DNA of 40,090 nucleotides from Clostridia bacterium (GCA_017441125.1 JAFSAH010000049.1:1-40090), one strand, 5' to 3'; positions 4,392 through 22,817 are shown, counted from the stretch's first letter. Notes: generated by a model not told the origin, from the letters alone. Translations and numbers: made by a program.

Positions 4392-4403
4392 GGAGGAAGG
4401 AAA

Positions 4404-5345
4404 ATGAGTAACGTAAACGATTTTGTAATAGAAAACGGAGTTTTGAAAAAATATAACGGCAAAGATAAAAATGTTGTGATTCCTGAAGAAGTCAGAGAAA
4501 TCGGGGAGAATGCTTTTTCAAGAAAACATATAAAAACCGTATCCATGCCTGACAGCGTTGAGGTAATAGGTTGGAACGCTTTTGAAAGTTGCAGGTACCT
4601 CGAAAAAGTTTCCTTTTCTGATAATCTCAAAGAAATATTGCCTAATGCTTTTGGAAATTGTCAGGCATTGGAATCCGTTTCTTTGCCAAATTCATTGAAA
4701 AAAATTGATATCTGCGCTTTCAGTGGATGTTTCAATATAAAAGAGCTGATTTTGCCAGAACATGATTTTGAAATTGGAGAAAGCGCTTTTTCAGGGTGCG
4801 AATCACTTGCTGACGAAAATGGCTATGTAATTGTTCGGGATGTCCTATATAATTACACAAAAAATGATTCCGACAAAATCCAAATTGCTCAAGGTGTTAA
4901 ACATATTAACCGTACCCTGCTGTGGAATAACTACACGATTATTCACAGTCTTCATATTCCCGCCTCAGTGGAAACTATCCAAGATAAAACGTTTGAAACT
5001 TGTACAAACCTCCGGGAATGTTTTTTTGCATTCACCGTAAAAGATTCAAAGCAAGCCGAACTTATAATCAAAAAGGCTTTTTCTTTGGAAGGTCTGGCAT
5101 ACGCTTTTCTTTCTGGAACTTTTTTAGCTGATCCACTTATAATTGATGCCCTTAAAAAGCAAATTGCCTCAAAATCTTTTCGCGTGAGTTTTTTGCGCAG
5201 AATGATATATTGTAATAATGCTGAAGCTATCAAAAAACTTTTGGAGTGCACCAAAAAGCTGCCTTTAAATGAACTGGATGAATATATTGATTTGTCTGAT
5301 GATCCATCCGTTCGCACCGTATTTATGGAATATAAAAACAGATGA
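4404..5345 (+). CDS. BspA/TpLRR-type leucine-rich repeat protein (LRR-1), probably C-terminally truncated
   Basis: Repeats of IPxxVxxIGxxAFxxCxxL; starts MSNVNDFVIENG; no signal peptide. The stop is followed in frame by a relic FVAE*. Confidence 0.88.
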   Translation: MSNVNDFVIENGVLKKYNGKDKNVVIPEEVREIGENAFSRKHIKTVSMPDSVEVIGWNAFESCRYLEKVSFSDNLKEILPNAFGNCQALESVSLPNSLKKIDICAFSGCFNIKELILPEHDFEIGESAFSGCESLADENGYVIVRDVLYNYTKNDSDKIQIAQGVKHINRTLLWNNYTIIHSLHIPASVETIQDKTFETCTNLRECFFAFTVKDSKQAELIIKKAFSLEGLAYAFLSGTFLADPLIIDALKKQIASKSFRVSFLRRMIYCNNAEAIKKLLECTKKLPLNELDEYIDLSDDPSVRTVFMEYKNR

Positions 5346-5372
5346 TTCGTAGCGGAATAAGGAGGATTAAAA

Positions 5373-5843
5373 ATGCCATCCGAACTTAATATTCAGAAAT
5401 ATGAAAACTATAAAGAACAGATGAAACGCCTTGACCGCGCGTTGACAAACGGTTTTAATCTTGAAGCCATGTTTATCGAATATGCGATAATGGAAGACCG
5501 CACTGAATCAATTTTGCGCCATGGCGATTTATGGGAAGCGTATCTTAAAAAACGCGGCCGCTTCCAGCCAAGTATCGAATCTAAAATCAATTATATACAG
5601 GCAAGATCAACCGATAAAACAACTCTGTTGTACAAATATTTTGATAATGATCTTCTTGCAATGGTTCTTGAGTGGAAAGAAGAACGCAACCGCCTTATCC
5701 ATGCTCTTTTAAAACAGGAATTTGCACATAACGAAGTAAGTGAACTCGCCCAAAAAGGTAAAAAACTTGTTGATGAACTAAAAAAACGCTCCGGAAATTA
5801 CAGCCGTGCCATTGAAAGGCAGAAAGCGAAGGCAGAAAAATGA
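5373..5843 (+). CDS. Putative HEPN-domain protein (possible RNase effector)
   Basis: All-alpha 156 aa. N-terminal LEAMFIEYAIMEDR and an Rx4H motif RNRLIH (5685-5702). GGAGG RBS; ATGA overlap with the next gene. Confidence 0.6.
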   Translation: MPSELNIQKYENYKEQMKRLDRALTNGFNLEAMFIEYAIMEDRTESILRHGDLWEAYLKKRGRFQPSIESKINYIQARSTDKTTLLYKYFDNDLLAMVLEWKEERNRLIHALLKQEFAHNEVSELAQKGKKLVDELKKRSGNYSRAIERQKAKAEK

Positions 5844-7351
5844 ACATAAAAGAAGCAAAAGAACAGATTCAGAACGCCATAAAAGCATATTTCACCAAGG
5901 ATGAATTCGGCGGATATGTTATTCCAATCGAACGTCAGCGCCCGATTTTTATGATGGGTCCTCCCGGAATCGGAAAAACCGCCATAATGGAGCAAGTGGC
6001 TTCGGAACTTAACGTGGGCCTTGTTTCCTATTCCATGACCCACCACACCCGCCAGTCCGCTCTGGGTCTGCCGTTTATCGAAAAGAAAAACTACGGTGGA
6101 AAAGAATATTCCGTTTCGGAATACACCATGTCCGAAATCATCGCGTCCGTTTACGATATGATCGAAAAAACCGGCCATAAAGAAGGAATCCTCTTCCTCG
6201 ACGAGATCAATTGCGTTTCCGAAACCCTTGCGCCGGCAATGCTCCAGTTCCTCCAGTATAAAATCTTCGGACGTCACACCGTTCCGGAAGGCTGGATAGT
6301 CGTTACTGCCGGAAACCCGCCGGAATATAACAATTCCGTCCGTGAATTCGATATCGTAACCTGGGACAGACTTAAACGCGTTGATATCGAACCGGACTAC
6401 AAGGTCTGGAAAGAATACGCATATAAAAAGGGCGTCCACGCCGCAATCACCACATATCTCGATATAAAAACCAACGATTTTTATAAAATCGAAACCACCG
6501 TTGACGGAAAAACCTTTGTAACCGCCCGCGGCTGGTGCGATCTTTCGGATATGATGAAGCTTTATGAACTCCACAGTATCAAAATTGACGAAAAACTTAT
6601 CGGCCAGTATCTCCAGAACAAAAAGGTCGCGAAGGATTTCGCCATATATTATGATTTATTTAATAAATATAAATCCGATTATCAGGTGGACAAAATCCTC
6701 GACGGAAAAGCGGATGCGGAAATCAAAAACCGCGCGAAAGCCGCAAAATTTGATGAACGCCTTGCGCTGCTCGGACTTCTCATCGACGGAATTACCGAAA
6801 AACTGAAAGCGTGCTCAAATTCCGAACAGGTGCTCAGTGGTCTTGTAACTGTGCTCAAAAACTACCGTATGGAAATTGCAAGACCCGGAACCAACCCCGT
6901 TGCTGCAATGAAAAAAGCAATCCTCGCAAAAGAAAAAGACCTTGAAAAAGGAAAACTCGCTTCTTCAATGTCTGTGGATGCTCAGTATGTTTGCAACGGA
7001 ATAATCGCCGTGCTCGAAGAGCAGAAAGCAATGCTCAAGGCAGAAAACCCCGCAGACGGAAATGCCGCTTTTGCGCTCGTTAAAGCGGATTTTGACAAAC
7101 GCACCAAGGAATTCAAAAAGCAGGCAGATACCGCCGGAAAGCAGCTTTCCAACGTGTTCATCTTCTGCGAAGAGGTGTTCCCGGACGGACAGGAAATGCT
7201 TATCCTTGTTACGGAACTGACCATCAGCTACTACGGTGCTCATTTCATCAGCCGCTATGGCTGCAAGGAATATTTTGCACACAACAAGGAGCTTCTTTTC
7301 TATGAAAGACAGAAGAAAATCATAACCGAGCTTGAAAACCTTGAACTTTGA
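5840..7351 (+). CDS. MoxR-type AAA+ ATPase with long helical C-terminal region
   Basis: Walker A GPPGIGKT, Walker B ILFLDEIN, VTAGNP, DR arginine-finger region and TARGW. Confidence 0.9.
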   Translation: MNIKEAKEQIQNAIKAYFTKDEFGGYVIPIERQRPIFMMGPPGIGKTAIMEQVASELNVGLVSYSMTHHTRQSALGLPFIEKKNYGGKEYSVSEYTMSEIIASVYDMIEKTGHKEGILFLDEINCVSETLAPAMLQFLQYKIFGRHTVPEGWIVVTAGNPPEYNNSVREFDIVTWDRLKRVDIEPDYKVWKEYAYKKGVHAAITTYLDIKTNDFYKIETTVDGKTFVTARGWCDLSDMMKLYELHSIKIDEKLIGQYLQNKKVAKDFAIYYDLFNKYKSDYQVDKILDGKADAEIKNRAKAAKFDERLALLGLLIDGITEKLKACSNSEQVLSGLVTVLKNYRMEIARPGTNPVAAMKKAILAKEKDLEKGKLASSMSVDAQYVCNGIIAVLEEQKAMLKAENPADGNAAFALVKADFDKRTKEFKKQADTAGKQLSNVFIFCEEVFPDGQEMLILVTELTISYYGAHFISRYGCKEYFAHNKELLFYERQKKIITELENLEL

Positions 7352-7370
7352 TACATAAGGAGGAACAAAA

Positions 7371-8519
7371 ATGAGCGATTTTGTAATTGAAAACGGAATT
7401 CTTAAAAAATATACCGGAGCGGGCGGAGATGTTGTTATTCCTGAAGATGTTAAGGAAATTGATTCGCACGCTTTTGAAGGAAACAAAAAAATTAAAAACG
7501 TGATTATTCCTGCTGGCGTTGGGCTGATCGGCTATTGTGCATTCAAAGGCTGTTCCGCTTTGGAATCGATTCATATTCCGGAAAGTATTCTCAGGTTTGA
7601 AAATATGTCTTTTTCCGGATGTACAAAGCTCAAAAAAGTTTTCATCCCAAATCCTCATGCTTTTGCTTATGGAGCTTTTGAAAACTGCCGTACTCTTGAA
7701 TACATAAAAGCTTCTGAAGAAACTCTTGAAGGAATTTTCCGCGGTGCCGGCGACAAACTTAAAATAAACATATCTTATGGATATCTTTGCAGTGATGATA
7801 AAAGTGAAAAATACGAAGAAACCTGCAAATGGTTCAAGAAAAAAATTCTTCCGATAATTTTCGAAAATGATAACTCAAAAGCTCTTTCTAAGCTTTTCGG
7901 AATGTATAAGAAACCAATAAAAATCAATGATATCGACGAATATCTTTCCTTCGTTACCGAAAAACCGGAATTGACCTCTTTTTTGCTTGAATATAAAAAC
8001 AAGTATTATTCTTCCGAACAGGTCAATAAAAATGCAGAAACCAATTCTGAAAAGGAACTTGGAATCAAGCCTAAAACCCTTGCAGAATGGAGAAAAGTGT
8101 TTGCAATTTCTGATATAGGTGGAAAATGGGTGCTTGAAAAATATAAAATTAAAGAAGCCTTTGTAGAAATCCCCGAAAAAATCGGAACAAAACCTGTTAT
8201 AGAACTTCAGAATACTTTCGAAAACCACGAAGAAATAACTTCCGTTTTGATTCCAAACAGTATTGAAATAATCGGATGGAACGTTTTTGACGGAACTTCC
8301 ATTGAAGAAATATCCATACCGGAAAATGTTATGGGGTTAGGAATGTTTTCATTTGCTAATTGTGAAAAACTTAAAAAAGTAACATTCTGCGGCAATAATT
8401 GTACTGAAATTGATGAAACCGCTTTCCGGAACAGTACAAACGTTGTAATCCACGCTCCAGCAGGTAGCTACGCCGAAACTTATGCAAAAGAAAACAACAT
8501 TCCGTTTGTGGCGGAATAA
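7371..8519 (+). CDS. BspA-type LRR protein (LRR-2): LRR, central helical module, LRR
   Basis: MSDFVIENG start, LRR_5-like repeats, central ...LLEYKNK...EKELGIK..TLAEWRK.F, and an IHAPAGSYAETYAKENNIPFVAE end. Confidence 0.9.
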   Translation: MSDFVIENGILKKYTGAGGDVVIPEDVKEIDSHAFEGNKKIKNVIIPAGVGLIGYCAFKGCSALESIHIPESILRFENMSFSGCTKLKKVFIPNPHAFAYGAFENCRTLEYIKASEETLEGIFRGAGDKLKINISYGYLCSDDKSEKYEETCKWFKKKILPIIFENDNSKALSKLFGMYKKPIKINDIDEYLSFVTEKPELTSFLLEYKNKYYSSEQVNKNAETNSEKELGIKPKTLAEWRKVFAISDIGGKWVLEKYKIKEAFVEIPEKIGTKPVIELQNTFENHEEITSVLIPNSIEIIGWNVFDGTSIEEISIPENVMGLGMFSFANCEKLKKVTFCGNNCTEIDETAFRNSTNVVIHAPAGSYAETYAKENNIPFVAE

Positions 8520-8531
8520 GGAGGAACAAAA

Positions 8532-9671
8532 ATGAGCGATTTTGTAATTGAAAACGGAGATTTGATCAACTATACCGGAAAAGGCGGAGATGTTGTCATC
8601 CCGGAAGGCGTCACTAAAATCGGAAGCTTCACATTTTACGGATGTGAAAATCTCCGAAGCATCGTAATTCCGGAAGGTGTTACTGAAATCGGATACAACG
8701 CATTTTACGGATGTGAAAATCTCCAAAGTTTTATTATTCCAAAAGGTGTCACAAAAATCGGACCTTTGGCTTTTTCTGGTTGTCATAATCTCAGGAGTAT
8801 TGTCATTCCGGAAAGTGTAAATGAAATCGAAATCAAAGCATTTTCCGGATGTAAAAATCTCCAAAGTGTTGTAATTCCGGAAAGTGTTAATAAAATTGGA
8901 AATGGAGCGTTTTGCGGATGTGAGAAACTTGCTGATGAAAACGGATTTGCGATAGTCCGAAATGTTCTTTACAGCTATCACGGAAATGATTCGAATGTTG
9001 TTATCCCAAAACATGTTGAAAAAATAGGAAAATCTTCATTTTTCCATTGCGAAAAACTCCAGAGTATCGTTATCCCCGAAGGAATAACCGAAATTGAGAG
9101 TTCAGCATTTGTTGGTTGTGAAAATCTCCAAAGAGTAGTTATTCCAAATAGTATTATTAAAATCGGAGAATCGATTTTTGACAGTTGCCCGAACATTTTG
9201 TACGTATATGCCGAAAAAAACATAATTAATATAATCAGCAACAAAAATATGCAAAAAACATGCGCTGTTGTTGTCACATCTTCTGAGAACAATGTTTCTT
9301 TTTTAGCTTATTGTTCAAAAGCAAAAACTGATAACTTTACCAATTTTGTTAAAACCGGTAAATGGAACGCTTATGATATCGAGCTTTTGAATAATGGACC
9401 AACATATAAATATAAACCCGGAGTCCGTTTCCTCGGCGCTCTCGGAAGGCTCAACGACCCGGTTGATTTGACCGATGAATGCAAAGAGCTTTACATGGAA
9501 CTTCTCGTTAAAAACGCGAAGAAACTCATCCCCATTGCGGAAGAAATCGACTGTCCTGAAATCGTCGAAATGATGATAAAACACGAAATTATTAACGACG
9601 GAAACAGAAAAGCCATCAACAAATTGCTTGCTGCTTCCGCAAATGAAAAAATTGCCGCTTTTGCGGAATAA
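8532..9671 (+). CDS. BspA-type LRR protein (LRR-3)
   Basis: 23-aa LRR units visible as 69-bp DNA repeats. The C-terminal ~160 aa are shared with LRR-4. Confidence 0.9.
   Translation: MSDFVIENGDLINYTGKGGDVVIPEGVTKIGSFTFYGCENLRSIVIPEGVTEIGYNAFYGCENLQSFIIPKGVTKIGPLAFSGCHNLRSIVIPESVNEIEIKAFSGCKNLQSVVIPESVNKIGNGAFCGCEKLADENGFAIVRNVLYSYHGNDSNVVIPKHVEKIGKSSFFHCEKLQSIVIPEGITEIESSAFVGCENLQRVVIPNSIIKIGESIFDSCPNILYVYAEKNIINIISNKNMQKTCAVVVTSSENNVSFLAYCSKAKTDNFTNFVKTGKWNAYDIELLNNGPTYKYKPGVRFLGALGRLNDPVDLTDECKELYMELLVKNAKKLIPIAEEIDCPEIVEMMIKHEIINDGNRKAINKLLAASANEKIAAFAE
8598..8930 (+). repeat. 69-bp tandem repeat units encoding LRRs
   Basis: CATTTTACGGATGTGAAAATCTCC occurs exactly at 8632-8655 and 8701-8724. 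About five degenerate units. Confidence 0.85.
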
Positions 9672-9682
9672 GGAGAAAAAAC

Positions 9683-10762
9683 ATGAGCGATTTTATAATT
9701 GAAAACGGAACACTTATTAAATATGCAGGAAAATCCAAGAGAGTTGAAATTCCAAAAGATGTTGCTGTAATAGGGTCGGAAGCGTTTCGTTTCTGCAGAA
9801 ATCTTCAAACTGTTGTTATTCCCGAAAGTGTAACCGAAATAGGGGACAGTGCTTTTAGTGATTGTGAGAATCTGCGAAATGTCGCTATTCCTGAAAGTAC
9901 CCAAAAAATAGGTGGCTGTGCTTTTTGGGGATGCGAAGGCCCTCAAAACATCACTATTTCAAATAATGTTACAGAAATAGGGTATGGCGCATTTTTCCAT
10001 TGTAAAAGTCTTAAAAGTATATCCGTCCCAGCAAAAGTAACTAAAATTGAGGAAGGTACTTTTAATTGGTGTGAAAACCTTGAAAATGCCGTAATTCCCG
10101 AAGGTGTTGTTAAAATCGACAAAGAAGCATTTCATTGGTGCCAAAATCTTCAAGCTGTTATTATTCCTGAAAGTGTAACAATTGTTGAGAACAGAGCATT
10201 TGATGGGTGTGAATCATTGAGAAAAATCGTTATTCCACAAAAAATTGCTAAAATCGGTGAATATGCTTTTTATGGTTGCCCCAACATTTCTTACATATAT
10301 GCCGGCGAAAACATAACCAGCATGATCAACAATAAAAACATGCAAAAAACATGTGCTACTGTTGTTACTCATTCCGAAAACGGTATAGGTTTTGTTGCTT
10401 ATTGTTCTAAGGCGAATTCGGACAATTTTACCGATTTCCTTGAAAATAATAACTGGAATGCATACGATATTGAGCTTATTAATAATGGACCTACTTACAA
10501 ATATAAACCTACTGTCCGTCTTCTCGGCGCTCTCGGAAGACTCAACGATCCGGTTGAACTGACCGACGAATGCAAAGAACTTTACGTTGAGCTTCTCGTT
10601 AAGAACGCAAAGAAACTCATCCCCATTGCGGAAGAAATCGACTGTCCCGAAATCGTCGAAATGATGATAAAACACGAAATTATTAACGACGGAAACAGAA
10701 AAGCCATCAACAAACTGCTGAAAGCTTCGGCAAACGAAAAAATTGCCGCCTTTGCGGAATAA
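9683..10762 (+). CDS. BspA-type LRR protein (LRR-4), paralog of LRR-3
   Basis: MSDFIIENG start, LRR units, and a C-terminus nearly identical to LRR-3 (...LLVKNAKKLIPIAEEIDCPEIVEMMIKHEIINDGNRKAINKLL...). Confidence 0.9.
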   Translation: MSDFIIENGTLIKYAGKSKRVEIPKDVAVIGSEAFRFCRNLQTVVIPESVTEIGDSAFSDCENLRNVAIPESTQKIGGCAFWGCEGPQNITISNNVTEIGYGAFFHCKSLKSISVPAKVTKIEEGTFNWCENLENAVIPEGVVKIDKEAFHWCQNLQAVIIPESVTIVENRAFDGCESLRKIVIPQKIAKIGEYAFYGCPNISYIYAGENITSMINNKNMQKTCATVVTHSENGIGFVAYCSKANSDNFTDFLENNNWNAYDIELINNGPTYKYKPTVRLLGALGRLNDPVELTDECKELYVELLVKNAKKLIPIAEEIDCPEIVEMMIKHEIINDGNRKAINKLLKASANEKIAAFAE

Positions 10763-10786
10763 ATTTTCATCCGAAAGGAGAAAAAC

Positions 10787-12307
10787 ATGGAAACGGATTA
10801 TGCGGAAAAATATAAAGCCATAAACGGAAACAAAATCCTTGCTTCGATGAAGCTTCTCGGTGTAGCTTTGCCGAAAGTGAAACTTAAAGACGGAACCGAA
10901 GCGCCTGCGGAACTTTTTAAGTTTATCCTTGTTTCCTATGGCCAGATGTTCAAAAAGTTAAAACCGGAAATTGTTCCGGAAGCGGACGAAGCTGCCGCTT
11001 TGCTTTCTTACGATTCTCTTTGCGAAGCAATGGAACAAGTGAGCGGAAATATGAACTGCGCCGCATACCCTTGCTTCATTCCGCTTCTTTGCCGCTTCGG
11101 AAGCGCAAAACAGATAAAATATATGATTTCCGAGTTCAAAAGATGGGGCGAATGGTCGCAATTTGGCGCAAAAGGTAGAAAAGCGCAGGATATCTTCAAA
11201 ATCTGCATTGTTCTGAGCAACACCCATGAAGCAGTCGTCTTTTGTGAAAAGCAGGGTATGCTCCCTGCATATGCAAACCTTCGGGGCGTTTCCGTTGATG
11301 ATATTTATGAAAACAATCTTTTTGACTTTGGTTTTGACGAAAACGGAATCCGCATTTTTGATCTCGGCATCGCCAAAATTGAAGTCAGCCTTACGGATGA
11401 GCTGACCCTTTTCCTTTTCAACACCGCCACCGGAAAAGAAGTGAAATCCATTCCGAAAAAGAACATTGATCCGGAAGTTTACGCGAAGGCATCCGCCGAT
11501 TTTGCGGATATGCGCCAAAATCTTAAAAAGGCCGTAAAAATCAAAAACGACAAACTTTTCAGCGACTTCATCGAAGGAACGGAATTTGAAGCGAAAAAAT
11601 GGAAAAACAGTTATTTTAAAAATCCACTCCTCAATAAAATCGGAAGCATTCTTGTCTGGTCGCAAGGAAAAAACACTTTTATTCTTAACAGAAAAAGCGT
11701 TTTCTGCGCCGACGGGACAGAATATTCCCTTACCGATGAAAAAATAAAACTTGCGCACCCCATGGAGATGAGCACCGAAGACGTCAGTGCGTGGCAAAAG
11801 TATTTTACTTCCCATAATCTGAAGCAGCCTTTCTCCCAGATCTGGGAACCGATTTATGATGAGAAAGATATCAAACCGGACAGATACAAGGATTGCAAAA
11901 TCCGCGCACTTTATCTTAAAAATCAGCAAAAACGCGGAATAAGCTGTGAATGGTATGAAGGTGAATGGTACGAATCCCATGAATTTTATATAAACGGTTT
12001 TTCTGCTGATGCAAGAGGAACCGACGAACCGGACAGGCTCGAAATTGCTGAACTTGTTCCTGAAAAGTGGAACAGAAGAGCTAATATGATTATCGCCTAT
12101 CTTGACCGCATTACGGTTTATGACAGGATAAAAAAGGACGACGCAAGCGTTATGAACCAGATGGAGCGGTTCACCCTTGCACAGATAACCGAATTTATCA
12201 GGATTGCGCAGGAAAACAACGCAACAAACGTAACGGCGCTTCTGCTCAATTATAAAAATGAAAACTTCGGCGATTTCGACCCTATGGCGGAATTCACTCT
12301 TGATTAA
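10787..12307 (+). CDS. DUF4132-domain protein with C-terminal helical module shared with the LRR proteins
   Basis: FDFGFDENG...K..KSIPK, W...Y..NPLL...LVW and IKLAHP.EM...W...F....KQPF.Q are characteristic of DUF4132. It ends ...VTALLLNYKNENF. Confidence 0.8.
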   Translation: METDYAEKYKAINGNKILASMKLLGVALPKVKLKDGTEAPAELFKFILVSYGQMFKKLKPEIVPEADEAAALLSYDSLCEAMEQVSGNMNCAAYPCFIPLLCRFGSAKQIKYMISEFKRWGEWSQFGAKGRKAQDIFKICIVLSNTHEAVVFCEKQGMLPAYANLRGVSVDDIYENNLFDFGFDENGIRIFDLGIAKIEVSLTDELTLFLFNTATGKEVKSIPKKNIDPEVYAKASADFADMRQNLKKAVKIKNDKLFSDFIEGTEFEAKKWKNSYFKNPLLNKIGSILVWSQGKNTFILNRKSVFCADGTEYSLTDEKIKLAHPMEMSTEDVSAWQKYFTSHNLKQPFSQIWEPIYDEKDIKPDRYKDCKIRALYLKNQQKRGISCEWYEGEWYESHEFYINGFSADARGTDEPDRLEIAELVPEKWNRRANMIIAYLDRITVYDRIKKDDASVMNQMERFTLAQITEFIRIAQENNATNVTALLLNYKNENFGDFDPMAEFTLD

Positions 12308-12319
12308 GGAGGAAAAAAC

Positions 12320-13807
12320 ATGAGCGATTTTGTAATTGAAAACGGAGTTCTTAAAGAATACACCGGTACAGACAAAAATGTTGTAATTCCGGACGGAGTA
12401 ACAACAATCGGAATTGCTGCTTTTATTCATAGTAATCTTACAACTGTTTCCATTCCACAAAGTGTTACTAAAATTAAAGTATGCGCTTTTTCGTGTAGCA
12501 ATCTTAAGGAAATAGCAATACCTGAAAACGTTACCGAAATTGAAGAAAGAGCTTTTATAAATTGCAAAAATTTAAAAAGCGTATTTCTTCCCTCACATTT
12601 AGAGGTTTTCGGTAAAGGAGTATTTGAAGATTGCAGCCAGACGCTTGAAATTTATTGCAACGAAAAAATTTTTACTATGCTTGATGGAAAAGCCAAAGAT
12701 AATCTGGCAATTCTTTGGCTGACTAACCAAGCAACTTTTGAGAAAAATGAAGTTGCAGCAATTGAAAAGTATATCAGCCGAACCGGAAAAAGGCTTATTT
12801 CGCTGATTTCTGGTGATGACGGTGAAGCTGCTTCAAAACTTCTAAACTGTTGTAAAATTAAACTTGAAGATCTTAATGTTTTAATTTCCGAATATAACGA
12901 TTGCAAACACAATGAAATTCTGGCAGCTCTTATGGACTATAAAAACAGAAATTATTCTGTTCAGGAAGAAGAAGCTCTGGTAAATGAAAAGCTTGAAAAA
13001 GATTTGGGAATCAAAGAGCTTACTTTAGCTGATCTTAAAAAAATCTTTAAATTTAAAGAAGTTAATGGTGCTATTTGCATCAGCGGTTATAAAGGAAACG
13101 ATTCTTTCGTCAATATTCCTGCATTTGTTGACGGAAAACCGGTAAAATCCATCCACGACAAAGCATTCCAAGGTTTAGAAGAAGTCACAACCGTTATTCT
13201 TCCCGAAGGCATAACAGATATTGGTAAAAACGCTTTTTCAGGTTGTGGCATTACCGATATCACACTTCCGGAAAGCATTGAAACTATTGGCAACAATGCT
13301 TTTTCCGGTTGTGCGTTGGAGCGAATAGTGATCCCGAATAATACCATAAGTTTGGGGTGGTTTGTTTTTGCACACTGCAATTTACTTAAAGAAGTTATTC
13401 TTCCGGATAGTCTTCAGGAAATAGGATGTTATGCGTTCCTTTTCTGCGAAGCTCTAGAAAACATTGTTCTGCCTGATGGAATTAAAAAAATCGGAACCGA
13501 AGCTTTTGCAAACTGCTGCAATTTAGCAAATGTTATACTGCCCGATTCCAAAGCAAAAATTGGAAACGGCATTTTTACAAACTGTGAAAAGCTCGAAAAA
13601 ATCGTGATTCCCAAAAACATAAAATTACTTGATAACTATGCTTTTGATGGATGCAATAAACTCAAAAAAGTCACTTTTGAAAGCGCAAAAACAAAAATTG
13701 GGGAGAATGTTTTCCGTTATTGCAAGAAAGTTGAAATCCACGCTCCTGCTGGAAGTTTTGCGGAAGCCTACGCAAAAGAAAACAACATTCCGTTTGTGGC
13801 GGAATAA
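12320..13807 (+). CDS. BspA-type LRR protein (LRR-5): LRR, central helical module, LRR
   Basis: MSDFVIENG start, central ALMDYKNRNYS...LEKDLGIKELTLADLKK, and an IHAPAGSFAEAYAKENNIPFVAE end. Confidence 0.9.
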   Translation: MSDFVIENGVLKEYTGTDKNVVIPDGVTTIGIAAFIHSNLTTVSIPQSVTKIKVCAFSCSNLKEIAIPENVTEIEERAFINCKNLKSVFLPSHLEVFGKGVFEDCSQTLEIYCNEKIFTMLDGKAKDNLAILWLTNQATFEKNEVAAIEKYISRTGKRLISLISGDDGEAASKLLNCCKIKLEDLNVLISEYNDCKHNEILAALMDYKNRNYSVQEEEALVNEKLEKDLGIKELTLADLKKIFKFKEVNGAICISGYKGNDSFVNIPAFVDGKPVKSIHDKAFQGLEEVTTVILPEGITDIGKNAFSGCGITDITLPESIETIGNNAFSGCALERIVIPNNTISLGWFVFAHCNLLKEVILPDSLQEIGCYAFLFCEALENIVLPDGIKKIGTEAFANCCNLANVILPDSKAKIGNGIFTNCEKLEKIVIPKNIKLLDNYAFDGCNKLKKVTFESAKTKIGENVFRYCKKVEIHAPAGSFAEAYAKENNIPFVAE

Positions 13808-13827
13808 AATGGTGGAAAGAGGTAACC

Positions 13828-14952
13828 ATGAAATTTTTACATTTATCAGATCTTCACATCGGAAAAAGAGTTAATGAAATTCCCATGATAGAAGACCAAA
13901 AATATATTCTTGACGAAATATTGAAAATTGCAGATGATGAAAAACCAAAAGCAGTTCTTATTTCCGGTGACGTTTATGATACCGGAGTTCCTTCTGCCGA
14001 AGCCATTTTGCTTTTTAACGAGTTTATTTGCAGCCTTGCGGAAAAAAATATCGAGATTTTGATTATAAGCGGAAACCATGACAACGCCGCAAGACTTTCG
14101 TGCTACGGAAGCCTTGTAGAAAATTCCGGTGTACATATTTCTCCTGTTTATAGCGGATCCGTAAAACCCGTTGTTCTTAATGATGAATACGGAAAAATAA
14201 GTTTCTGGATGCTGCCTTTTATAAAACCCGCAAATGTAAAAAGCGTTTTTCCGGATGCGGAAATTGAAAGCTATACCGACGCCTGCCGCATCGCTGTTGA
14301 AAATATGGATATTAATGCCGAGGAAAGAAACGTTATTCTTACTCATCAGTTTGTAACCGGCGCAAAAACCTGTGGAGACGAAGAAATCAGCGTAGGCGGA
14401 ACGGATAACGTAAGTTCTGCAGTTTTTGATGTGTTTGATTACGTTGCTCTTGGACACATTCATGGGCAGCAGAATATCGGTTCAAACCGCGTGCGTTATT
14501 GCGGAACCCCTCTTAAATATTCTTTTTCTGAAATAAAGCACCACAAAAGTGTAACCGTTGTTGAACTTAAAGAAAAAGGCAATCTTGAAATTCATCTTGT
14601 TCCGCTGAATCCGAAACACGACCTTCGTGAAATAAAAGGATTTTTTAACGTGCTTTATAACAGGGAACTTTATAGTGAAGATTATATCCATGTGATTCTT
14701 ACCGATGAAGAAGATGTTCCGGAAGCTGTCGGACGTCTTCGCACGGTTTATCCCAACATAATGCATCTAAGCTATGAAAACACAAGGACAAGCCAGAATC
14801 AAGTGATAGATTTTTCAAATGATGTGCAAAGCAAATCTCCGATAGAACTTTTTGAAGAACTTTATTTCAAACAGAACAACCGGAATATGAGCGAAGTTCA
14901 AAAGAATTTCGCAATCGAACTTATTGAGGAAATAAAGGAGGGCAAAGCATGA
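13828..14952 (+). CDS. sbcD: Nuclease SbcCD subunit D (Mre11-like metallophosphoesterase)
   Basis: HLSDLHIG, SGDVYD, SGNHD, YVALGHIHG, RYCGTPLKYSFSE. Confidence 0.95.
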   Translation: MKFLHLSDLHIGKRVNEIPMIEDQKYILDEILKIADDEKPKAVLISGDVYDTGVPSAEAILLFNEFICSLAEKNIEILIISGNHDNAARLSCYGSLVENSGVHISPVYSGSVKPVVLNDEYGKISFWMLPFIKPANVKSVFPDAEIESYTDACRIAVENMDINAEERNVILTHQFVTGAKTCGDEEISVGGTDNVSSAVFDVFDYVALGHIHGQQNIGSNRVRYCGTPLKYSFSEIKHHKSVTVVELKEKGNLEIHLVPLNPKHDLREIKGFFNVLYNRELYSEDYIHVILTDEEDVPEAVGRLRTVYPNIMHLSYENTRTSQNQVIDFSNDVQSKSPIELFEELYFKQNNRNMSEVQKNFAIELIEEIKEGKA

Positions 14953-17720
14953 GACCTTTAAAACTTATAATGTCCGCTTTCGGACCTTATGCCGGGGTTG
15001 AGGAAATAGATTTTGCTACCTTCGGAAGTTCCGGAATCTATCTTATAACGGGTGATACCGGCGCCGGAAAAACAACAATTTTTGATGCGATAACATTTGC
15101 ACTTTTCGGTAAAGCCAGCGGCGACAACAGGGAAAACGATATGCTCCGTTCAAAATATGCCGATGCAAAAACAAAAACTTTTGTTGAGCTTGATTTTGAA
15201 TATCGCGGAGAAACTTATAAAGTAACCCGCAATCCTTCCTATACCCGTCTGAAAGAACGTGGAGAAGGCGAAACAACACAGCAAGCGGAAGCAACTCTTA
15301 ATCTTCCGTCCGGAGATGTTGTTACAAAAAACGGAGACGTTACAAAAAAAATCGAAGAAATCATAGGTGTTGACTGCGATCAGTTTTCCCAGGTTGCAAT
15401 GATTTCCCAGGGAGCTTTCCGGGAACTTCTTCAGGCAAGCACCGAAGAACGCCAGAAAACTTTCCGCAAAATTTTCAAAACCGGTGATTATGAAAAACTT
15501 CAGGAAAAGCTTTCTAAAAAAGCAAACGAGGTAAGCAGGGAATGCAGTTCTGAAAACGATTCTATAAAGCAATCCATAAAAGACATTGAAATCGGAGAAG
15601 GTTCTTCTTACAAGGAAGAAGTGGAAAGTCTTAAAGAAAATTCTTTCCCTTCATGTTCGGAAGCAATTGAACTCCTGAAAAAAATAATTTCCGAAGATAC
15701 GGAGCTTAAAGAAAATATCGAGAAAACAAAAGACGAACTTTCCAAAAAGAAAGAGGTAATCATCAAAAAACTGGCGGAATCCGAAGCATACGATAATGCA
15801 AAACGCCAGTTGGATGGAAACACGGAAAAGCTTGAAAATGAAAAAATAAACCTCGAGGATTTTAAGACAAAACTTTCTGAAGCGGAAAATTCAAAACCGA
15901 GGCAAAAAGAAATATCCGAAACCATTGCGGTAATAAACGCTCTTTTGGAAGATTATGCAAAGCGCGATACCCTGATTTCCGAAAGAAAACGCGCCGAAGA
16001 GGAAAAACAGAATGAAGAAAACGCAAAGGAGAAGGCCGTTGCTGAACAGGAAAAATATAAAGCGGAATTCGATGAACTGAAAAAAGAATCCGAAATGCTC
16101 AAGGATTCTGCTGTTAATTTCGAAAAACTCGAGAACGCAAAAAGAGAACTCAATATCCGCAAAGAAAAATACGAAACGCTCATAACGGATATCAAAAATT
16201 ACAATCGGGAAAAAGAACTTCTCACCAAAAAACAGGATGCTTATGCTGAGGCTGCCAAAGAATGCGAACATCTTGGAAATGAATACAGCAGAAGAAACAG
16301 CGCTTTCCTTGATGAACAGGCCGGAATAATTGCTTCGAACCTTACCGACGGAATTCCTTGCCCCGTTTGCGGTTCTATTCACCACCCGAACCTTGCACAG
16401 CTTTCCGAAAACGCTCCGACAGAAGCGGAAGTTAAAGCATCAAAAAAACTTTATGAAGAGGCAAACAAAAAATCCTCTGAACTCAGTTTGGAGGCCGGAA
16501 AGCAAAACGGAATTGTTGAAACCGCTAAAAAGGCAATTGAAGACAAACTTTCCGAGCTTCTTTGCGGAATACTTTTTGAAGAAGCAGAATCTGCCACAAA
16601 AGAAAAAATCTGTGCTTTAAACGAAGAATTTGATGGTTTGGAAAAGCAATCACGTTCCGAAAAAGAAAACGCAGAAAGAAAAAAGGAACTTGACGAAAAT
16701 CTTATTCCGAAAGCAGAAAACACAGTTAAAGCGGCGGAAGAAAAATATCGCGAAGCTGATAAAAACATCGGAATGCTTTCTGAAAAAATAAAAAGCTTTA
16801 TTGAACAGACGGAAGATCTTAACAAAAAACTTGAATTCAAGGACAAAGCAGAGGCGGAAGCAAAAATCGAAGTTCTTGATGCTGAACGCCGGAAACTTGA
16901 AGAAACATATAATGCAGCAAAAAAAGAGTGTGATGATTGCCAGAACAGAATTTTCGTTCTTTCCGGAAGCATCGAACAGCTTGAAAAACAGCTTGAAAAA
17001 GCTCCGGATATCGGAACAGATGACCTTAAATCAGAACAGGGAAGAATTGAAGTTTCGCTTTCTGATGCCGAGGGTGATTTTGGTGCTGTAAATACCAGAA
17101 TCGCAATAAACGGTAAAATCCGGGATGAAATTTCTCATAAGTCGAAGAAAATTGAAGAACTTCGCGAAAAAGAATCCTGGCTCAGAGCGCTTTCCGATAC
17201 CGCAAACGGAAATCTTTCTCAGAAGAAAGAAAAAATCACACTTGAAACTTATATACAGACTTCCTATTTTGACAGAATACTTCGCCATGCGAATATACGT
17301 CTTCAAAAAATGTCCGGAGGACAGTATGATTTTGTCAGAAAAGAAAAAGCGGACCAGTTCAAATCCAAGTCCGGACTTGAACTGAACATCATCGACCACG
17401 TTAACGCGACGGAACGCAGCGTAAACACCCTTTCCGGCGGTGAATCCTTCCTTGCCTCCCTTGCGCTGGCGCTTGGACTTTCCGACGAGGTACAGATGTC
17501 CACAGGCATTCGCATAGATACTCTCTTCATTGATGAAGGATTCGGTTCCCTTGACCCGGAAGCTCTCCGTAAAGCATACAACACTCTTGCAAGCCTTACC
17601 GAAGGCAACCGCCTTATCGGAATAATTTCCCACGTTTCGGAACTTAAAGAACGCGTCGATAAACAAATCGTTGTCAAAAAAGATAAATCCGGCGGAAGCA
17701 GCGCAAAAGTCGTTGTTTAA
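14949..17720 (+). CDS. sbcC: Nuclease SbcCD subunit C (Rad50-like SMC ATPase)
   Basis: GDTGAGKT, coiled coils, Zn-hook CPVCGS, LSGGE, FIDEGFGSLD, ISHV; ATGA overlap with sbcD. Confidence 0.95.
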   Translation: MRPLKLIMSAFGPYAGVEEIDFATFGSSGIYLITGDTGAGKTTIFDAITFALFGKASGDNRENDMLRSKYADAKTKTFVELDFEYRGETYKVTRNPSYTRLKERGEGETTQQAEATLNLPSGDVVTKNGDVTKKIEEIIGVDCDQFSQVAMISQGAFRELLQASTEERQKTFRKIFKTGDYEKLQEKLSKKANEVSRECSSENDSIKQSIKDIEIGEGSSYKEEVESLKENSFPSCSEAIELLKKIISEDTELKENIEKTKDELSKKKEVIIKKLAESEAYDNAKRQLDGNTEKLENEKINLEDFKTKLSEAENSKPRQKEISETIAVINALLEDYAKRDTLISERKRAEEEKQNEENAKEKAVAEQEKYKAEFDELKKESEMLKDSAVNFEKLENAKRELNIRKEKYETLITDIKNYNREKELLTKKQDAYAEAAKECEHLGNEYSRRNSAFLDEQAGIIASNLTDGIPCPVCGSIHHPNLAQLSENAPTEAEVKASKKLYEEANKKSSELSLEAGKQNGIVETAKKAIEDKLSELLCGILFEEAESATKEKICALNEEFDGLEKQSRSEKENAERKKELDENLIPKAENTVKAAEEKYREADKNIGMLSEKIKSFIEQTEDLNKKLEFKDKAEAEAKIEVLDAERRKLEETYNAAKKECDDCQNRIFVLSGSIEQLEKQLEKAPDIGTDDLKSEQGRIEVSLSDAEGDFGAVNTRIAINGKIRDEISHKSKKIEELREKESWLRALSDTANGNLSQKKEKITLETYIQTSYFDRILRHANIRLQKMSGGQYDFVRKEKADQFKSKSGLELNIIDHVNATERSVNTLSGGESFLASLALALGLSDEVQMSTGIRIDTLFIDEGFGSLDPEALRKAYNTLASLTEGNRLIGIISHVSELKERVDKQIVVKKDKSGGSSAKVVV

Positions 17721-17778
17721 AACCGCATTAGCATCAAACAAAAAAGCCCCCGTGCTCAAATGAGCACGGGGGGTCTTG
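17721..17778. terminator. Bidirectional terminator; second copy of the 2441-2499 repeat
   Basis: AACCGCATTAGCATCAAACAAAAAAGCCCCCGTGCTCAAATGAGCACGGGGG vs AACCGCATGAGCATCAAACAAAAAAGCACCCGTGCTCAATATGAGCACGGGTG. Confidence 0.8.
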
Positions 17779-17784
17779 TTATCG

Positions 17785-21477: not shown

Positions 21478-21483
21478 TTCCTT

Positions 21484-21705: not shown

Positions 21706-21872
21706 GCACTCCCTTGCTTTAATCTGATTCCATTATATAACTTTAATTTAAATAATCAATAAACGAACTGCATAATTGGAGAGGAAAAGAAAAACAAAAT
21801 GTTATCGGTGCGATTTTGGAACAAATTTATGTATATTTTCGACAAATTCCTCTAAAAATGGCGATGAACCGA

Positions 21873-21909
21873 CAGCATAGTTTACAATCAAAAGCAAAAA
21901 GTCTATAAT
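21873..21909 (+). promoter_or_regulatory. Sigma-A promoter P2 (copy of P1)
   Basis: CAGCATAGTTTACAATCAAAAGC is identical to 2918-2940. TTTACA (21881-21886), 17 bp, TATAAT (21904-21909). Confidence 0.8.
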
Positions 21910-21938
21910 ATTCGTATACTAATATAACTCAGAAAAGT

Positions 21939-22805
21939 GTGGCTGCGATGACTTATTTTGATGAATACGAAAACCTTGTTTTTACAAATTCCGTTGATAA
22001 ATCCGATCCGGAATGGAGGAATTTTATCGCCTCAATAAAGCGAAGAAAAAGGCACTTTGCGGAGCTTCTTGTTCTTGAAAAAAGCGGGGAGAAGATGAAG
22101 AATTTTCTTTTACTTTGGAAAAAAGTTTCGCTCGATGACATAAACGAGTATCTTGAGATGAGCACGAAAAATGATGCCGGCGAAGTTACAGCTGTTTTAC
22201 TCGAATACAAACGGGAAAACTATTCCGACGAAAAAATCGAAAAACATGAAAACGAGAAAGCGGAAAAAGCTCTTGGCACAAAGGAACTTTCCCTTGCGGA
22301 CTGGCGGAAAACTTACAGAGTAAGAATAGAAAACGACGAAGCTGTAATCTCAAAATATAAAGGCTGTGATTCTTATGTGGAAATTCCCGCTTTTATCGGT
22401 AAAAACAAAGTAATAAAGATTGGTGAGCAGGCTTTTAACTGCAATCAGGAAATTGAAAGCGTAACCGTTCCGGAAGGTGTTAACGAGATAGAATTTTATG
22501 CTTTTTCAAAATGCAAAAACCTGAAAAACGTCACTATTCCCGAAACGGTTACAAAAATGGGGTTCGGAATCTTTTTCGGCTGCACAAATCTTGAAAAAAT
22601 CACCTTGCCGGAATATCTTGAAGAAATTTCACAATGCACCTTTGATAAATGTCCGAATCTGAAAGAAGTTCATATCCGCGGAAAAAACACGAAAATTCAT
22701 TGGCATAATTTCAAAGGATCGAAGGATTTTACAATTTATGCTCCGGAAGGAAGCATTGCCGAAGATTTTGCATTAAAGCACAAAATATCTTTCATTGCAG
22801 AATAA
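21939..22805 (+). CDS. LRR protein (LRR-6): helical module at the N-terminus, then BspA-type LRRs
   Basis: VTAVLLEYKRENYS...AEKALGTKELSLADWRK, LRR units, IYAPEGSIAEDFALKHKISFIAE. The start is uncertain (GTG 21939 or ATG 21948). Confidence 0.85.
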   Translation: MAAMTYFDEYENLVFTNSVDKSDPEWRNFIASIKRRKRHFAELLVLEKSGEKMKNFLLLWKKVSLDDINEYLEMSTKNDAGEVTAVLLEYKRENYSDEKIEKHENEKAEKALGTKELSLADWRKTYRVRIENDEAVISKYKGCDSYVEIPAFIGKNKVIKIGEQAFNCNQEIESVTVPEGVNEIEFYAFSKCKNLKNVTIPETVTKMGFGIFFGCTNLEKITLPEYLEEISQCTFDKCPNLKEVHIRGKNTKIHWHNFKGSKDFTIYAPEGSIAEDFALKHKISFIAE

Positions 22806-22817
22806 GGAGGAATAAAG

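What the first reader, a model, noticed from the sequence alone, without database searches (positions are those of the whole stretch)
5200..22320. Shared unnamed helical module ending L/M-(E/D/N)-YK in five different proteins
Seen: LRR-1 LNELDEYIDLSDDPSVRTVFMEYKNR (C-term); LRR-2 INDIDEYLSFVTEKPELTSFLLEYKNK (middle); DUF4132 LAQITEFIRIAQENNATNVTALLLNYKNE (C-term); LRR-5 LEDLNVLISEYNDCKHNEILAALMDYKNR (middle); LRR-6 LDDINEYLEMSTKNDAGEVTAVLLEYKRE (N-term). Three continue with EK.LG.K...LA(D/E).(R/K)K. Inference: a position-independent adaptor like the effector-associated domains of ternary conflict systems, coupling sensors and effector to each other or to MoxR/vWA.
Basis: partly seen in the sequence, partly recalled or inferred. 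Interest (0 to 1): 0.8.

Follow-up and report, generated by a model that had tools for sequence, protein, structure and literature searches.

The report
Shared ankyrin-like handle on MoxR-vWA partner proteins
Five neighbouring proteins share a small helical, ankyrin-like end-piece that elsewhere marks the repeat-protein partner of one particular ATP-driven MoxR/vWA machine in gut and rumen Clostridia, so it is probably the constant handle by which variable binding proteins attach to that machine.

Summary
The 30-residue motif is the last hairpin of a 60-95 aa all-helical domain with no Pfam match. Predicted structure and profile comparison point to about two divergent ankyrin-like repeats.

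It is not a generic LRR cap. In an even sample of about 400 Clostridia genomes it occurs only in genomes with this window's MoxR subfamily (5 of 19 against 0 of about 380), each time beside the vWA-MoxR pair. A more divergent form ends the adjacent LRR protein in 12 of the 16 remaining MoxR loci. In this terminal form a short tail follows, ending hydrophobic-x-Leu at the C-terminus. One clade of DUF4132 proteins carries the same domain and tail.

The internal and N-terminal copies are best explained by gene fusion and truncation within paralogue arrays.

The effector-associated-domain analogy is only partly met: there is no copy on MoxR or vWA, no enzymatic partners, and neighbouring copies are not each other's closest kin.

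Docking to MoxR-vWA is inferred, because the complex predictor was unavailable. Earlier agents of this scan had already noted the MoxR-vWA-LRR triad on other DNA. The shared handle, its tail and the DUF4132 link are new here.

The parts
3009..4391 (+). vWA partner protein. It has an N-terminal DUF2201_N zincin-like domain without the catalytic Glu, and a C-terminal vWA domain with an intact MIDAS motif (DTSGS...T...D).
   Evidence: Pfam PF13203 and PF09967. In 30 homologues H79, H83, H88, E109, D171, H173 and D320-T-S-x-S324 are invariant, and the residue after H79 is I or M, not E.
4404..5345 (+). LRR-1: a BspA-type LRR_5 protein lying between the vWA and MoxR genes. The module forms its C-terminus and it ends at YKNR without the usual tail.
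   Evidence: Pfam; the stop context reads YKNR*FVAE*.
5157..5342 (+). Module copy 1 (LRR-1, C-terminal)
   Evidence: Left out of the HMM, it is found at E 2.2e-9.
5373..5843 (+). 156-aa protein with no family match. It recurs upstream of MoxR in two other loci.
   Evidence: No Pfam, NCBIfam or PADLOC hit. Homologues in L018 and L030.
5840..7351 (+). MoxR-type AAA+ ATPase of 503 aa with a helical C-terminal extension of about 210 aa that ends LEL
   Evidence: Pfam AAA, AAA_5 and a weak bpMoxR hit. Walker A GPPGIGKT and Walker B LDE are visible. C-termini are shown.
7818..8108 (+). Module copy 2 plus linker (LRR-2, between two LRR blocks)
   Evidence: Left-out E 2.3e-8. In the AF2 model helices 156-165, 169-176, 185-194 and 199-212 form the module, followed by helices 215-229 and 237-243; pLDDT 94.5.
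9438..9653 (+). Divergent module-like C-terminus of LRR-3, without YKN
   Evidence: E 0.044 with the HMM built from other genomes only; 1.1e-5 in a 7-sequence search. Weak.
10529..10747 (+). Divergent module-like C-terminus of LRR-4
   Evidence: E 0.008; 2.1e-6 in a 7-sequence search. Weak.
10787..12307 (+). DUF4132 protein of 506 aa with no LRR
   Evidence: PF13569 at 88.4 bits over aa 216-358. AF2 model pLDDT 91.5.
12077..12304 (+). Module copy 3 plus the 14-aa tail NFGDFDPMAEFTLD (C-terminus of the DUF4132 protein)
   Evidence: Left-out E 1.5e-3. Helices 430-449, 453-461, 464-476 and 480-494. Ankyrin-repeat proteins lead the structure matches to aa 436-506.
12764..13054 (+). Module copy 4 plus linker (LRR-5, internal)
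   Evidence: Left-out E 4.4e-4.
13828..17720 (+). SbcD and SbcC, co-directional and 20 nt downstream of LRR-5. This neighbour recurs beside such arrays.
   Evidence: Pfam.
22032..22322 (+). Module copy 5 plus linker (LRR-6, near the N-terminus, ahead of one LRR block)
   Evidence: Left-out E 1.8e-10.

Best explanation
The module is a 60-95 aa all-helical domain made of about two divergent ankyrin-like helical hairpins. It is the conserved C-terminal domain of the cytoplasmic BspA-type LRR protein that forms the third gene of a vWA(DUF2201)-MoxR-LRR triad in Clostridia. In that terminal form a tail of 8-15 residues follows it, ending hydrophobic-x-Leu at the C-terminus. One clade of DUF4132 proteins carries the same domain and tail.

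Shown: homology of the copies, a helical ankyrin-like predicted structure, restriction to genomes and loci with this MoxR-vWA pair, the conserved tail, and presence on DUF4132.

Inferred: the domain and tail are the constant handle that docks variable binding heads (LRR blocks, DUF4132) onto the MoxR-vWA machine. The likeliest docking site is the vWA protein, either its MIDAS site, which binds acidic extended peptides, or the cleft of its catalytically dead zincin domain. Internal and N-terminal copies arose when neighbouring array genes fused or were truncated, so that the old tail became the linker EK.LG.KE.TLA(D/E)W.K leading into the next LRR block.
For: Homology: (17 of 17 C-termini of LRR partners from other genomes are recovered when left out, E 7.5e-22 to 7.4e-4 against 5909 ORFs).

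Fold: both AF2 models give four helices with high confidence. VIA-align rows for the DUF4132 model fall almost entirely on aa 436-506. The best is the OspC3 ankyrin domain (7wr1_C, Z 6.5, rmsd 2.7, 59 aligned), and at least 13 of 50 rows are titled ankyrin, DARPin, gankyrin or OspC3. hhalign against Ank_2 regions of Clostridia gives probability 68%, P 4.7e-5, score 29.3; the reversed alignment scores 15.3 and the best of 30 column shuffles 13.0.

Linkage: the module was found in 5 of 399 other sampled genomes and the MoxR subfamily in 19 of 398. All 5 module genomes are among the 19, and in 5 of 5 the module ORF abuts vWA-MoxR. In the other 14 genomes, 12 of 16 loci have an adjacent protein ending in the domain. 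MoxR or vWA lies in the flank of 21 of 36 DUF4132-module loci and of 5 of 8 metagenome loci.

Tail: 14 of 17 LRR partners end [FYWL]-x-L, as do 104 of 110 database relatives, with the domain within 5 residues of the end in 104 of 110. 88 of 90 DUF4132 C-termini carry EF(T/S)L(E/D).

Not part of DUF4132 as such: E. coli YehI matches the DUF4132 core (E 5.6e-8) but has no module.

Fusion reading: MAFFT aligns the DUF4132 tail DPMAEFTLD with the internal linker G.KELTLAD. Among the 148 newly returned representatives of the top 150, 137 of 155 copies are internal, 13 N-terminal and 5 C-terminal.
Against: No binding was tested. LRR-7 in the window shows no module. LRR-1 lacks the tail and was missed by the HMM built from other genomes. 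15 of 36 DUF4132-module loci show neither MoxR nor vWA within the fetched flanks, including 7 of the 19 loci of 15 kb or more. 4 of 16 MoxR loci have no adjacent carrier. The ankyrin signal is weak: no Pfam Ank hit, every Z is under 8 (the tool warns that such values can reflect a common helical arrangement), and hhalign with two other module alignments gives only P 0.0046 and 0.055. The genomes compared are related to each other, so the 5-of-19 against 0-of-380 contrast overstates independence.
Confidence: 0.5

Rival explanations
1. The module is a passive structural spacer. It would be simply part of the ancestral LRR partner, such as a helical stalk or cap that stabilises the neighbouring domain, inherited through paralogy, gene fusion and one transfer to DUF4132. 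Contact with MoxR-vWA, if any, would be made by other parts of the protein.
For: Four of the five carriers are paralogues. Most copies elsewhere lie between two LRR blocks (137 of 155). The LRR-type copies are very divergent, 23-41% identical. LRR-7 does without it.
Against: The window's DUF4132 protein and 31 of the 97 DUF4132 carriers listed (my count of its table) have no LRR_5 to cap. In the DUF4132 clade the domain and tail are the most conserved stretch, with 29 invariant columns of 107. A conserved motif at the very C-terminus is typical of a docking peptide rather than a spacer. LRR_5 blocks have their own C-terminal cap, AP.GSYAE.YAK.N.IPF.
Confidence: 0.22
2. The module works by homotypic coupling, like an effector-associated domain. 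Modules on different proteins would bind each other and assemble the LRR proteins and the DUF4132 protein into one complex.
For: Several adjacent genes carry the same small non-enzymatic helical domain, which is the architectural pattern behind the EAD proposal (PMC7159879, section 30). In relatives LRR and DUF4132 are fused in one chain (66 of the 97 DUF4132 carriers, my count), so they probably act together.
Against: Minimal triads have a single carrier, so there is nothing to pair with. The window's LRR copies group with LRR copies from other loci, not with the window's DUF4132 copy. Fused LRR-DUF4132 proteins still keep the C-terminal module and tail.
Confidence: 0.1
3. The ankyrin-like repeats belong to the target-binding surface and recognise the unknown ligand together with the LRR blocks. 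They would not be the link to the machine.
For: Ankyrin repeats are general protein-binding modules (established knowledge, recalled). The LRR-type copies vary a good deal.
Against: The DUF4132-type copy is nearly invariant across Oscillospiraceae, Lachnospiraceae, Solobacterium and Negativibacillus, which is the opposite of a diversifying recognition surface. The strict link to one MoxR subfamily also fits a system-internal contact better.
Confidence: 0.13

Closest known systems
Ankyrin repeats (Pfam Ank, Ank_2)
   Same: Stacked helix-turn-helix hairpins with a period of about 30 residues. The register matches ..L..A.....E....LL.. as in the ankyrin consensus. It is a non-enzymatic protein-binding fold.
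   Different: No Pfam Ank match at E<=10. There is no TPLH or GxTPLH signature and no obvious beta-hairpin finger (by inspection). There are only about two repeats, and the unit ends in a family-specific LL.YK(N) plus tail.
Effector-associated domains (EADs) of MoxR-vWA and GTPase conflict systems (Kaur et al. 2020, PMC7159879; section 30 read)
   Same: A small helical non-enzymatic domain repeated on several adjacent proteins of a MoxR-vWA locus. An adaptor role is proposed for both.
   Different: No copy on the core MoxR or vWA. No enzymatic effector or signalling partners. Neighbouring copies are not closest kin. A single carrier is present in minimal loci. The fold is ankyrin-like, not Death-like.
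MoxR-vWA ternary systems (VMAP, iSTAND, FtsH and beta-propeller types; iSTAND2 and TERNS3 in PMC8195603; passages read)
   Same: A MoxR ATPase and a vWA protein with an intact MIDAS site, plus a conserved third component built on repeats. The locus diversifies and sits in a defence-island-like setting.
   Different: Here the third component is a cytoplasmic LRR_5 protein with the handle, or a DUF4132 protein. The vWA protein carries an N-terminal dead zincin domain (DUF2201_N) and no C-terminal effector. These main texts do not describe an LRR or DUF4132 third component and do not mention DUF2201 or DUF4132. Their supplements could not be opened.
MoxR-vWA remodelling pairs CbbQ-CbbO, NorQ-NorD and RavA-ViaA (recalled, not read here)
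   Same: The vWA protein acts as the adaptor that presents a client to the MoxR hexamer through its MIDAS site.
   Different: The client here is unknown. A family of interchangeable LRR and DUF4132 proteins with a common handle has no counterpart in those pairs.
E. coli yehI (DUF4132)-yehL (MoxR)-yehP (VWA)-yehQ (SWIM) cluster
   Same: DUF4132 sits next to a MoxR-vWA pair, as annotated in K-12. The DUF4132 cores are homologous (E 5.6e-8).
   Different: YehI has no module or tail. YehL and YehP are not close to the window's MoxR and vWA (E 0.08 and 0.12). There are no LRR genes.

Membership tests
Ankyrin repeat (Pfam Ank clan) | Match to a Pfam Ank model | tested here: not met
   No Ank family at E<=10 on six module-bearing segments. 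No Ank_2 match at E<=1e-8 in the window's own genome.
Ankyrin repeat (Pfam Ank clan) | Stacked helix-turn-helix hairpins of about 33 residues; structural superposition on solved ankyrin domains | tested here: inconclusive
   Four helices in two hairpins. The best match is the OspC3 ankyrin domain at Z 6.5, rmsd 2.7 over 59 residues, with many ankyrin rows, but all Z are under 8.
Ankyrin repeat (Pfam Ank clan) | Profile-profile similarity in the ankyrin register | tested here: inconclusive
   hhalign gives probability 68%, P 4.7e-5 with the diverse C-terminal alignment, but P 0.0046 and 0.055 with two others. Reversed and shuffled controls score at most 15.3 against 29.3.
Ankyrin repeat (Pfam Ank clan) | TPLH-type signature and beta-hairpin finger | tested here: not met
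   By inspection of the alignments, no TPLH or GxTPLH. No strands are predicted within the module.
Effector-associated domain (Kaur et al. 2020) | Small non-enzymatic, mostly helical domain | tested here: met
   no Pfam enzymatic family.
Effector-associated domain (Kaur et al. 2020) | [quoted passage not shown] | tested here: not met
   MoxR and vWA do not match the module HMM (E 0.56 and 0.17 in a 7-sequence search).
Effector-associated domain (Kaur et al. 2020) | Further copies fused to effector or signalling (usually enzymatic) domains | tested here: not met
   93 of 94 carriers are LRR_5. 97 of 120 carry DUF4132. The rare others are a ProQ_C-like domain, a TsaD fragment and DUF6273, and one hit that lists two phosphoglycerate-mutase families. 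No typical conflict-system effector was seen.
Effector-associated domain (Kaur et al. 2020) | Copies in adjacent genes are each other's closest relatives | tested here: not met
   In the FastTree of 81 copies the DUF4132 copies form one clade, and the window's LRR copies group with LRR copies from other loci. The alignment is short and the tree poorly resolved.
Effector-associated domain (Kaur et al. 2020) | Homotypic interaction | not testable with these tools
MoxR-vWA ternary conflict systems | Adjacent MoxR AAA+ and vWA genes plus a conserved third component | tested here: met
   vWA and MoxR lie next to an LRR protein carrying the handle in 5 of 5 and 12 of 16 loci.
MoxR-vWA ternary conflict systems | The third component is VMAP, iSTAND, FtsH, beta-propeller, iSTAND2 or TERNS3; effectors sit at the vWA C-terminus | tested here: not met
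   The third component is LRR_5 or DUF4132. The vWA protein ends just after the vWA domain. Definitions are taken from passages.
DUF4132 (PF13569) | Is the module part of the DUF4132 domain itself? | tested here: not met
   The Pfam match covers aa 216-358 only. E. coli YehI has the core but no module.
Generic LRR cap | Found on LRR proteins whatever their genomic context, and only on LRR proteins | tested here: not met
   Not found in any of about 380 sampled genomes that lack this MoxR subfamily. I did not count LRR_5 proteins in those genomes. The module is present on DUF4132 proteins without LRR.

The most novel reading that the evidence does not exclude
The handle and its hydrophobic-x-Leu C-terminal tail are a docking code. 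Through it, one MoxR-vWA(dead-zincin) machine of gut and rumen Clostridia would accept a diversifying repertoire of cytoplasmic LRR and DUF4132 receptor proteins. This would be an immune-receptor array whose sensor and ATPase sit on separate proteins, an NLR split into parts, possibly acting with the recurrently adjacent SbcCD nuclease. It would also give DUF4132 (E. coli YehI/MolR) its first mechanistic role, as a client or adaptor of MoxR-vWA.
Probability: 0.15. Interest if true: 0.85.

Novelty: new variant of a known kind. Interest (0 to 1): 0.6.

Why it matters
MoxR-vWA pairs are widespread, but their clients are mostly unknown. Here a recognisable, searchable handle marks the proteins that belong to one such machine. 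That turns a vague LRR array next to an ATPase into a system with a testable docking interface between the handle or tail and the vWA MIDAS site or dead-zincin cleft. The handle also ties DUF4132, a family with almost no literature (5 papers in the library mention the word), to the same machine. It explains how the hypervariable LRR arrays of these islands grow, by fusion of handle-bearing cassettes. A profile of this domain would let annotators separate these cytoplasmic LRR proteins from BspA-type surface LRR proteins.

Tried and rejected
1. Complex prediction, vWA protein (alignment A9) against the DUF4132 C-terminal module and tail (A2, residues 27-107). The queue was full for many tries, the job was accepted, it was lost on the remote machine, and the tool was then declared unavailable. 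There is no result and no verdict.

2. Structure search with the LRR-2 model. All 50 rows are LRR proteins and the helical part was not tested. Both fold jobs had gone to full-length proteins, so the module was never folded alone.

3. Foldseek of the DUF4132 model against the PDB: nothing at E<=0.001. Sequence searches of the PDB: no hit for the DUF4132 protein, and only chance-level hits (E>=0.13) for the module profile.

4. ESM Atlas look-up of the LRR-2 helical region: scores of 0.88 or less, unnamed clusters, uninformative.

5. Forty genomes of the same genus, family and order: no module.

A 5-sequence alignment gave only 8, mostly short, loci.

7. PADLOC has no model for the vWA protein, the LRR proteins, DUF4132 or p156.

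8. The plasmid collection has no MoxR homologue. The phage collection has 7 short unannotated faecal virome contigs with one, which is not interpretable.

9. Rejected idea: that YK is catalytic. It is invariant only within the window and varies (YR, YQ, HK, RL and others) in the LRR partners of other genomes.

10. Rejected idea: that the module belongs to DUF4132 in general.

Full report
**Setting.** The window is a whole 40-kb contig of a 57%-complete, 0.87-Mb assembly. From 3009 to 17720 eleven genes run head to tail on the + strand, separated by gaps of at most 27 nt or overlapping by 4 nt:
- a vWA protein with DUF2201_N and DUF2201 domains
- LRR-1
- a 156-aa protein with no family match
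- a 503-aa MoxR-type AAA+ ATPase
- LRR-2, LRR-3 and LRR-4
- a DUF4132 protein
- LRR-5
- SbcD and SbcC (Pfam)

LRR-6 and LRR-7 lie at 21939-24092, beyond a 1230-aa gene on the other strand. None of the LRR or DUF4132 proteins begins with a signal-peptide-like hydrophobic stretch (by inspection), so they are probably cytoplasmic. The rest of the contig looks like a defence island: a DruE-like helicase (E 1.7e-171), a PDC-S01 ATPase and a GajB/UvrD-like helicase.

**Observation.** All five quoted segments exist at the stated places. Leave-one-out HMMs recover each segment from the 6518 ORFs of the window's own genome at E 1.8e-10 to 1.5e-3. The best non-member scores 0.013 or worse. No Pfam family matches the segments even at E<=10. 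LRR-2, LRR-5 and LRR-6 continue with the EK.LG.K..TLA(D/E)W(R/K)K stretch.

**Anatomy.** AlphaFold2 models are confident: LRR-2 pLDDT 94.5 and the DUF4132 protein 91.5. In LRR-2 the module is helices 156-165, 169-176, 185-194 and 199-212. It lies inside a nine-helix region (116-243) between two LRR blocks. Two further helices, 215-229 and 237-243, carry the EK.LG...LAEWRK stretch and run into the beta-hairpin that starts the second LRR block. In the DUF4132 protein the module is helices 430-449, 453-461, 464-476 and 480-494, followed by the tail.

**Fold.** When the DUF4132 model was aligned to 48,161 PDB chains, nearly all top rows fell on residues 436-506. The best is the OspC3 ankyrin domain (Z 6.5, rmsd 2.7, 59 residues). 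At least 13 of the 50 rows are titled ankyrin, DARPin, gankyrin or OspC3, and several others are TRP channels and similar proteins that I recall as having ankyrin domains. PPR proteins also appear, and no Z reaches 8. The DUF4132 core found no convincing match.

I built an alignment of Ank_2 regions from Clostridia genomes and compared it with the module by hhalign. The diverse C-terminal alignment gives probability 68%, P 4.7e-5, score 29.3, in the register ..L..A.....E....LL... The reversed alignment scores 15.3, and the best of 30 column shuffles scores 13.0. Two narrower module alignments give the same register but only P 0.0046 and 0.055. My reading is about two ankyrin-like hairpins, too divergent for membership by sequence models.

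**Distribution of the YKN form.** A search with the five window segments over 5.8 billion proteins gave 165 hits, of which 120 are listed.
- In 107 of the 120 the module lies within 21 residues of the C-terminus.
- By my count of the table, 97 of the 120 carry DUF4132; 66 of those also have N-terminal LRR_5 and 31 do not.
- This clade's C-terminus is extremely conserved...FTLAQITEFI..A.ENN..NV.A.LL.YKN.NF.DFDPM.EF.LE.

A longer profile of 97 columns, including the linker, found 1388 cluster representatives at E<=1e-3 and 309 at E<=1e-10 among 1.84 billion. Of the top 150 listed, 148 were newly returned proteins. I could scan 94 of these against Pfam within the residue limit, and 93 carry LRR_5. 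In all 148, 137 of 155 copies are internal, 13 N-terminal and 5 C-terminal. Rare other partners are a ProQ_C-like domain, a TsaD fragment and DUF6273. No typical conflict-system effector domain was seen among the carriers.

**Link to MoxR-vWA.** No module was found in 40 genomes of the same genus, family or order. In an even sample of Clostridia it occurs in 5 of 399 other genomes. The window's MoxR subfamily occurs in 19 of 398. All 5 module genomes are among the 19, and in 5 of 5 the carrier abuts the vWA-MoxR pair, without any DUF4132 gene.

I then fetched the 16 MoxR loci of the other 14 genomes. In 12 of them a 300-530-aa ORF lies beside vWA-MoxR, and its last 90 or so residues align with the window modules. 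Ten of these ORFs match my LRR probe; the ORFs in L066 and L067 do not. Four loci (L063, L065, L068, L070) have no adjacent carrier.

Left out one at a time, 17 of 17 such C-termini are recovered at E 7.5e-22 to 7.4e-4 against 5909 ORFs. A model built from these 17 alone finds, in the window's own genome, only LRR-6, DUF4132, LRR-5, LRR-2, LRR-4 and LRR-3, and nothing else at E<=10. LRR-1 is missed. LRR-3 and LRR-4 thus probably carry a degenerate copy at their C-termini.

For the loci found through the DUF4132 C-terminus, MoxR or vWA lies in the fetched flank of 21 of 36 (both in 11), and of 12 of the 19 loci of 15 kb or more. For metagenome loci found through the LRR-type module the figure is 5 of 8; the three without either are 2.4-6.3 kb long. 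The genomes compared are related to each other, so these contrasts overstate independence.

**The tail.**
- 14 of the 17 LRR partners end exactly [FYWL]-x-L (FEL, YEL, FDL, FSL, FAL, LEL); all 17 have such a motif in the last six residues.
- Among 110 database relatives of these C-termini, which are LRR_5 proteins apart from a few short fragments with no Pfam entry, the domain ends within 5 residues of the C-terminus in 104, and 104 end hydrophobic-x-Leu.
- The DUF4132 clade ends EF(T/S)L(E/D) plus 0-2 residues in 88 of 90 non-redundant sequences.
- MAFFT aligns that tail with G.KELTLAD of the internal copies.

I infer that internal copies are former C-terminal copies whose gene fused with the next LRR gene. 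LRR-1 ends at YKNR, and FVAE follows in frame after the stop codon. It looks truncated.

**What DUF4132 adds.** In E. coli K-12, yehI (DUF4132), yehL (MoxR), yehP (VWA) and yehQ (SWIM) are annotated side by side. YehI shares the DUF4132 core with the window protein (E 5.6e-8) but has no module, and its MoxR and vWA are of another subfamily. DUF4132 therefore keeps company with MoxR-vWA pairs in general. The Clostridial clade has acquired the handle that this particular pair's LRR partner uses. In a tree of 81 copies the DUF4132 copies form one short-branched clade among long-branched LRR copies, which fits a single acquisition followed by strong constraint.

**Mechanism.** *Shown:* a conserved, helical, non-enzymatic domain with a conserved C-terminal peptide, confined to proteins encoded beside one MoxR-vWA subfamily, and shared by two unrelated kinds of head. 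*Inferred:* it is the docking handle. The vWA protein keeps an intact MIDAS motif (D320-T-S-x-S324, T389, D418 invariant) and a zincin-like domain with three invariant histidines but no catalytic glutamate. Kaur et al. describe MIDAS sites as binding extended peptides (passage). An acidic hydrophobic tail is a plausible ligand for either site. In close relatives MoxR itself ends LEL, FEL or LDL; this is curious but not conserved further out. I could not test binding, because complex prediction was full, then lost the job, then became unavailable.

**Comparison with EADs.** It fails on the other defining points read: there is no copy on a core component, no enzymatic partners, and adjacent copies are not closest kin. 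In addition, minimal systems have one carrier only.

**Literature.** Only 5 papers in the library contain 'DUF4132' and 4 contain 'DUF2201'. None of the titles or abstracts listed deals with this system. Two papers contain MoxR, leucine-rich repeat and von Willebrand together. In the one I opened (PMC8195603), the 12 of 17 passages shown give LRR only as a general sensor repeat. The other, PMC11090510 on McrBC-type restriction systems, I saw only as title and abstract and did not open. The main text of PMC7159879 has no 'DUF2201' or 'ankyrin', and its only 'LRR' is in a reference. Supplements were closed and may list more.

**Earlier notes of this scan.** Other agents had already described the MoxR / dead-peptidase vWA / cytoplasmic LRR triad on other DNA. 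I confirmed the triad and the missing catalytic residue independently. The shared handle, its tail, the DUF4132 link and the fusion reading are new here.

Noticed in passing
window 13828-17720; loci L008, L010, L012, L037/L044, L040, L041/L020, L050, L066, L070: SbcD-SbcC lies directly downstream of the array (20-nt gap), and SbcCD homologues flank such arrays in at least eight other contigs, sometimes 3-11 nt from the vWA or DUF4132 gene. In G400, G270 and G065 the only SbcC match in the genome is the one beside the MoxR-vWA locus. In G246 it lies elsewhere, and G192 has none. This is either an insertion hot spot or a functional link.
   Followed up: partly
window 24175-32269: A DruE-like helicase (PADLOC DruE1, E 1.7e-171) is preceded by a 1127-aa protein whose only Pfam hit is an RNA-polymerase alpha CTD-like domain. 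This may be a Druantia-type system with an unusual partner.
   Followed up: no
window 5343-5360: After the LRR-1 stop codon the frame reads FVAE and then a second stop. F(V/I)AE is the C-terminal ending of LRR-2, LRR-5, LRR-6 and LRR-7, and LRR-3 and LRR-4 end in FAE. It looks like a relic of recombination or truncation.
   Followed up: partly
window 5840-7351 and MoxR homologues in the loci: In close relatives the MoxR protein ends ..E.LEL, FEL or LDL, which resembles the hydrophobic-x-Leu tail of its partner proteins. This is not conserved in more distant homologues.
   Followed up: partly
window 5373-5843: A 156-aa protein with no family match lies between LRR-1 and MoxR and overlaps the MoxR start by 4 nt. 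Homologues sit upstream of MoxR in L018 and L030.
   Followed up: partly
window 17785-21477 (-): A 1230-aa protein with no Pfam, NCBIfam or PADLOC family. It has a long Lys/Glu-rich coiled-coil-like stretch and, by eye, a BRCT-like segment. No homologue was found in any fetched locus.
   Followed up: no
L018:4250-4588: In one LRR protein of another genome the module is followed by what looks by eye like a BRCT-type segment instead of a second LRR block.
   Followed up: no
L019/L025 (one Solobacterium contig): A tandem run of at least five DUF4132-plus-module genes with no MoxR or vWA within the fetched 20 kb. This is a satellite array of handle-bearing proteins.
   Followed up: no
window 35948-37225 and 33832-35946 (-): A UvrD/GajB-like helicase is followed by a 425-aa protein with a DEDDh exonuclease-like C-terminal half. 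This may be a two-gene defence pair.
   Followed up: no
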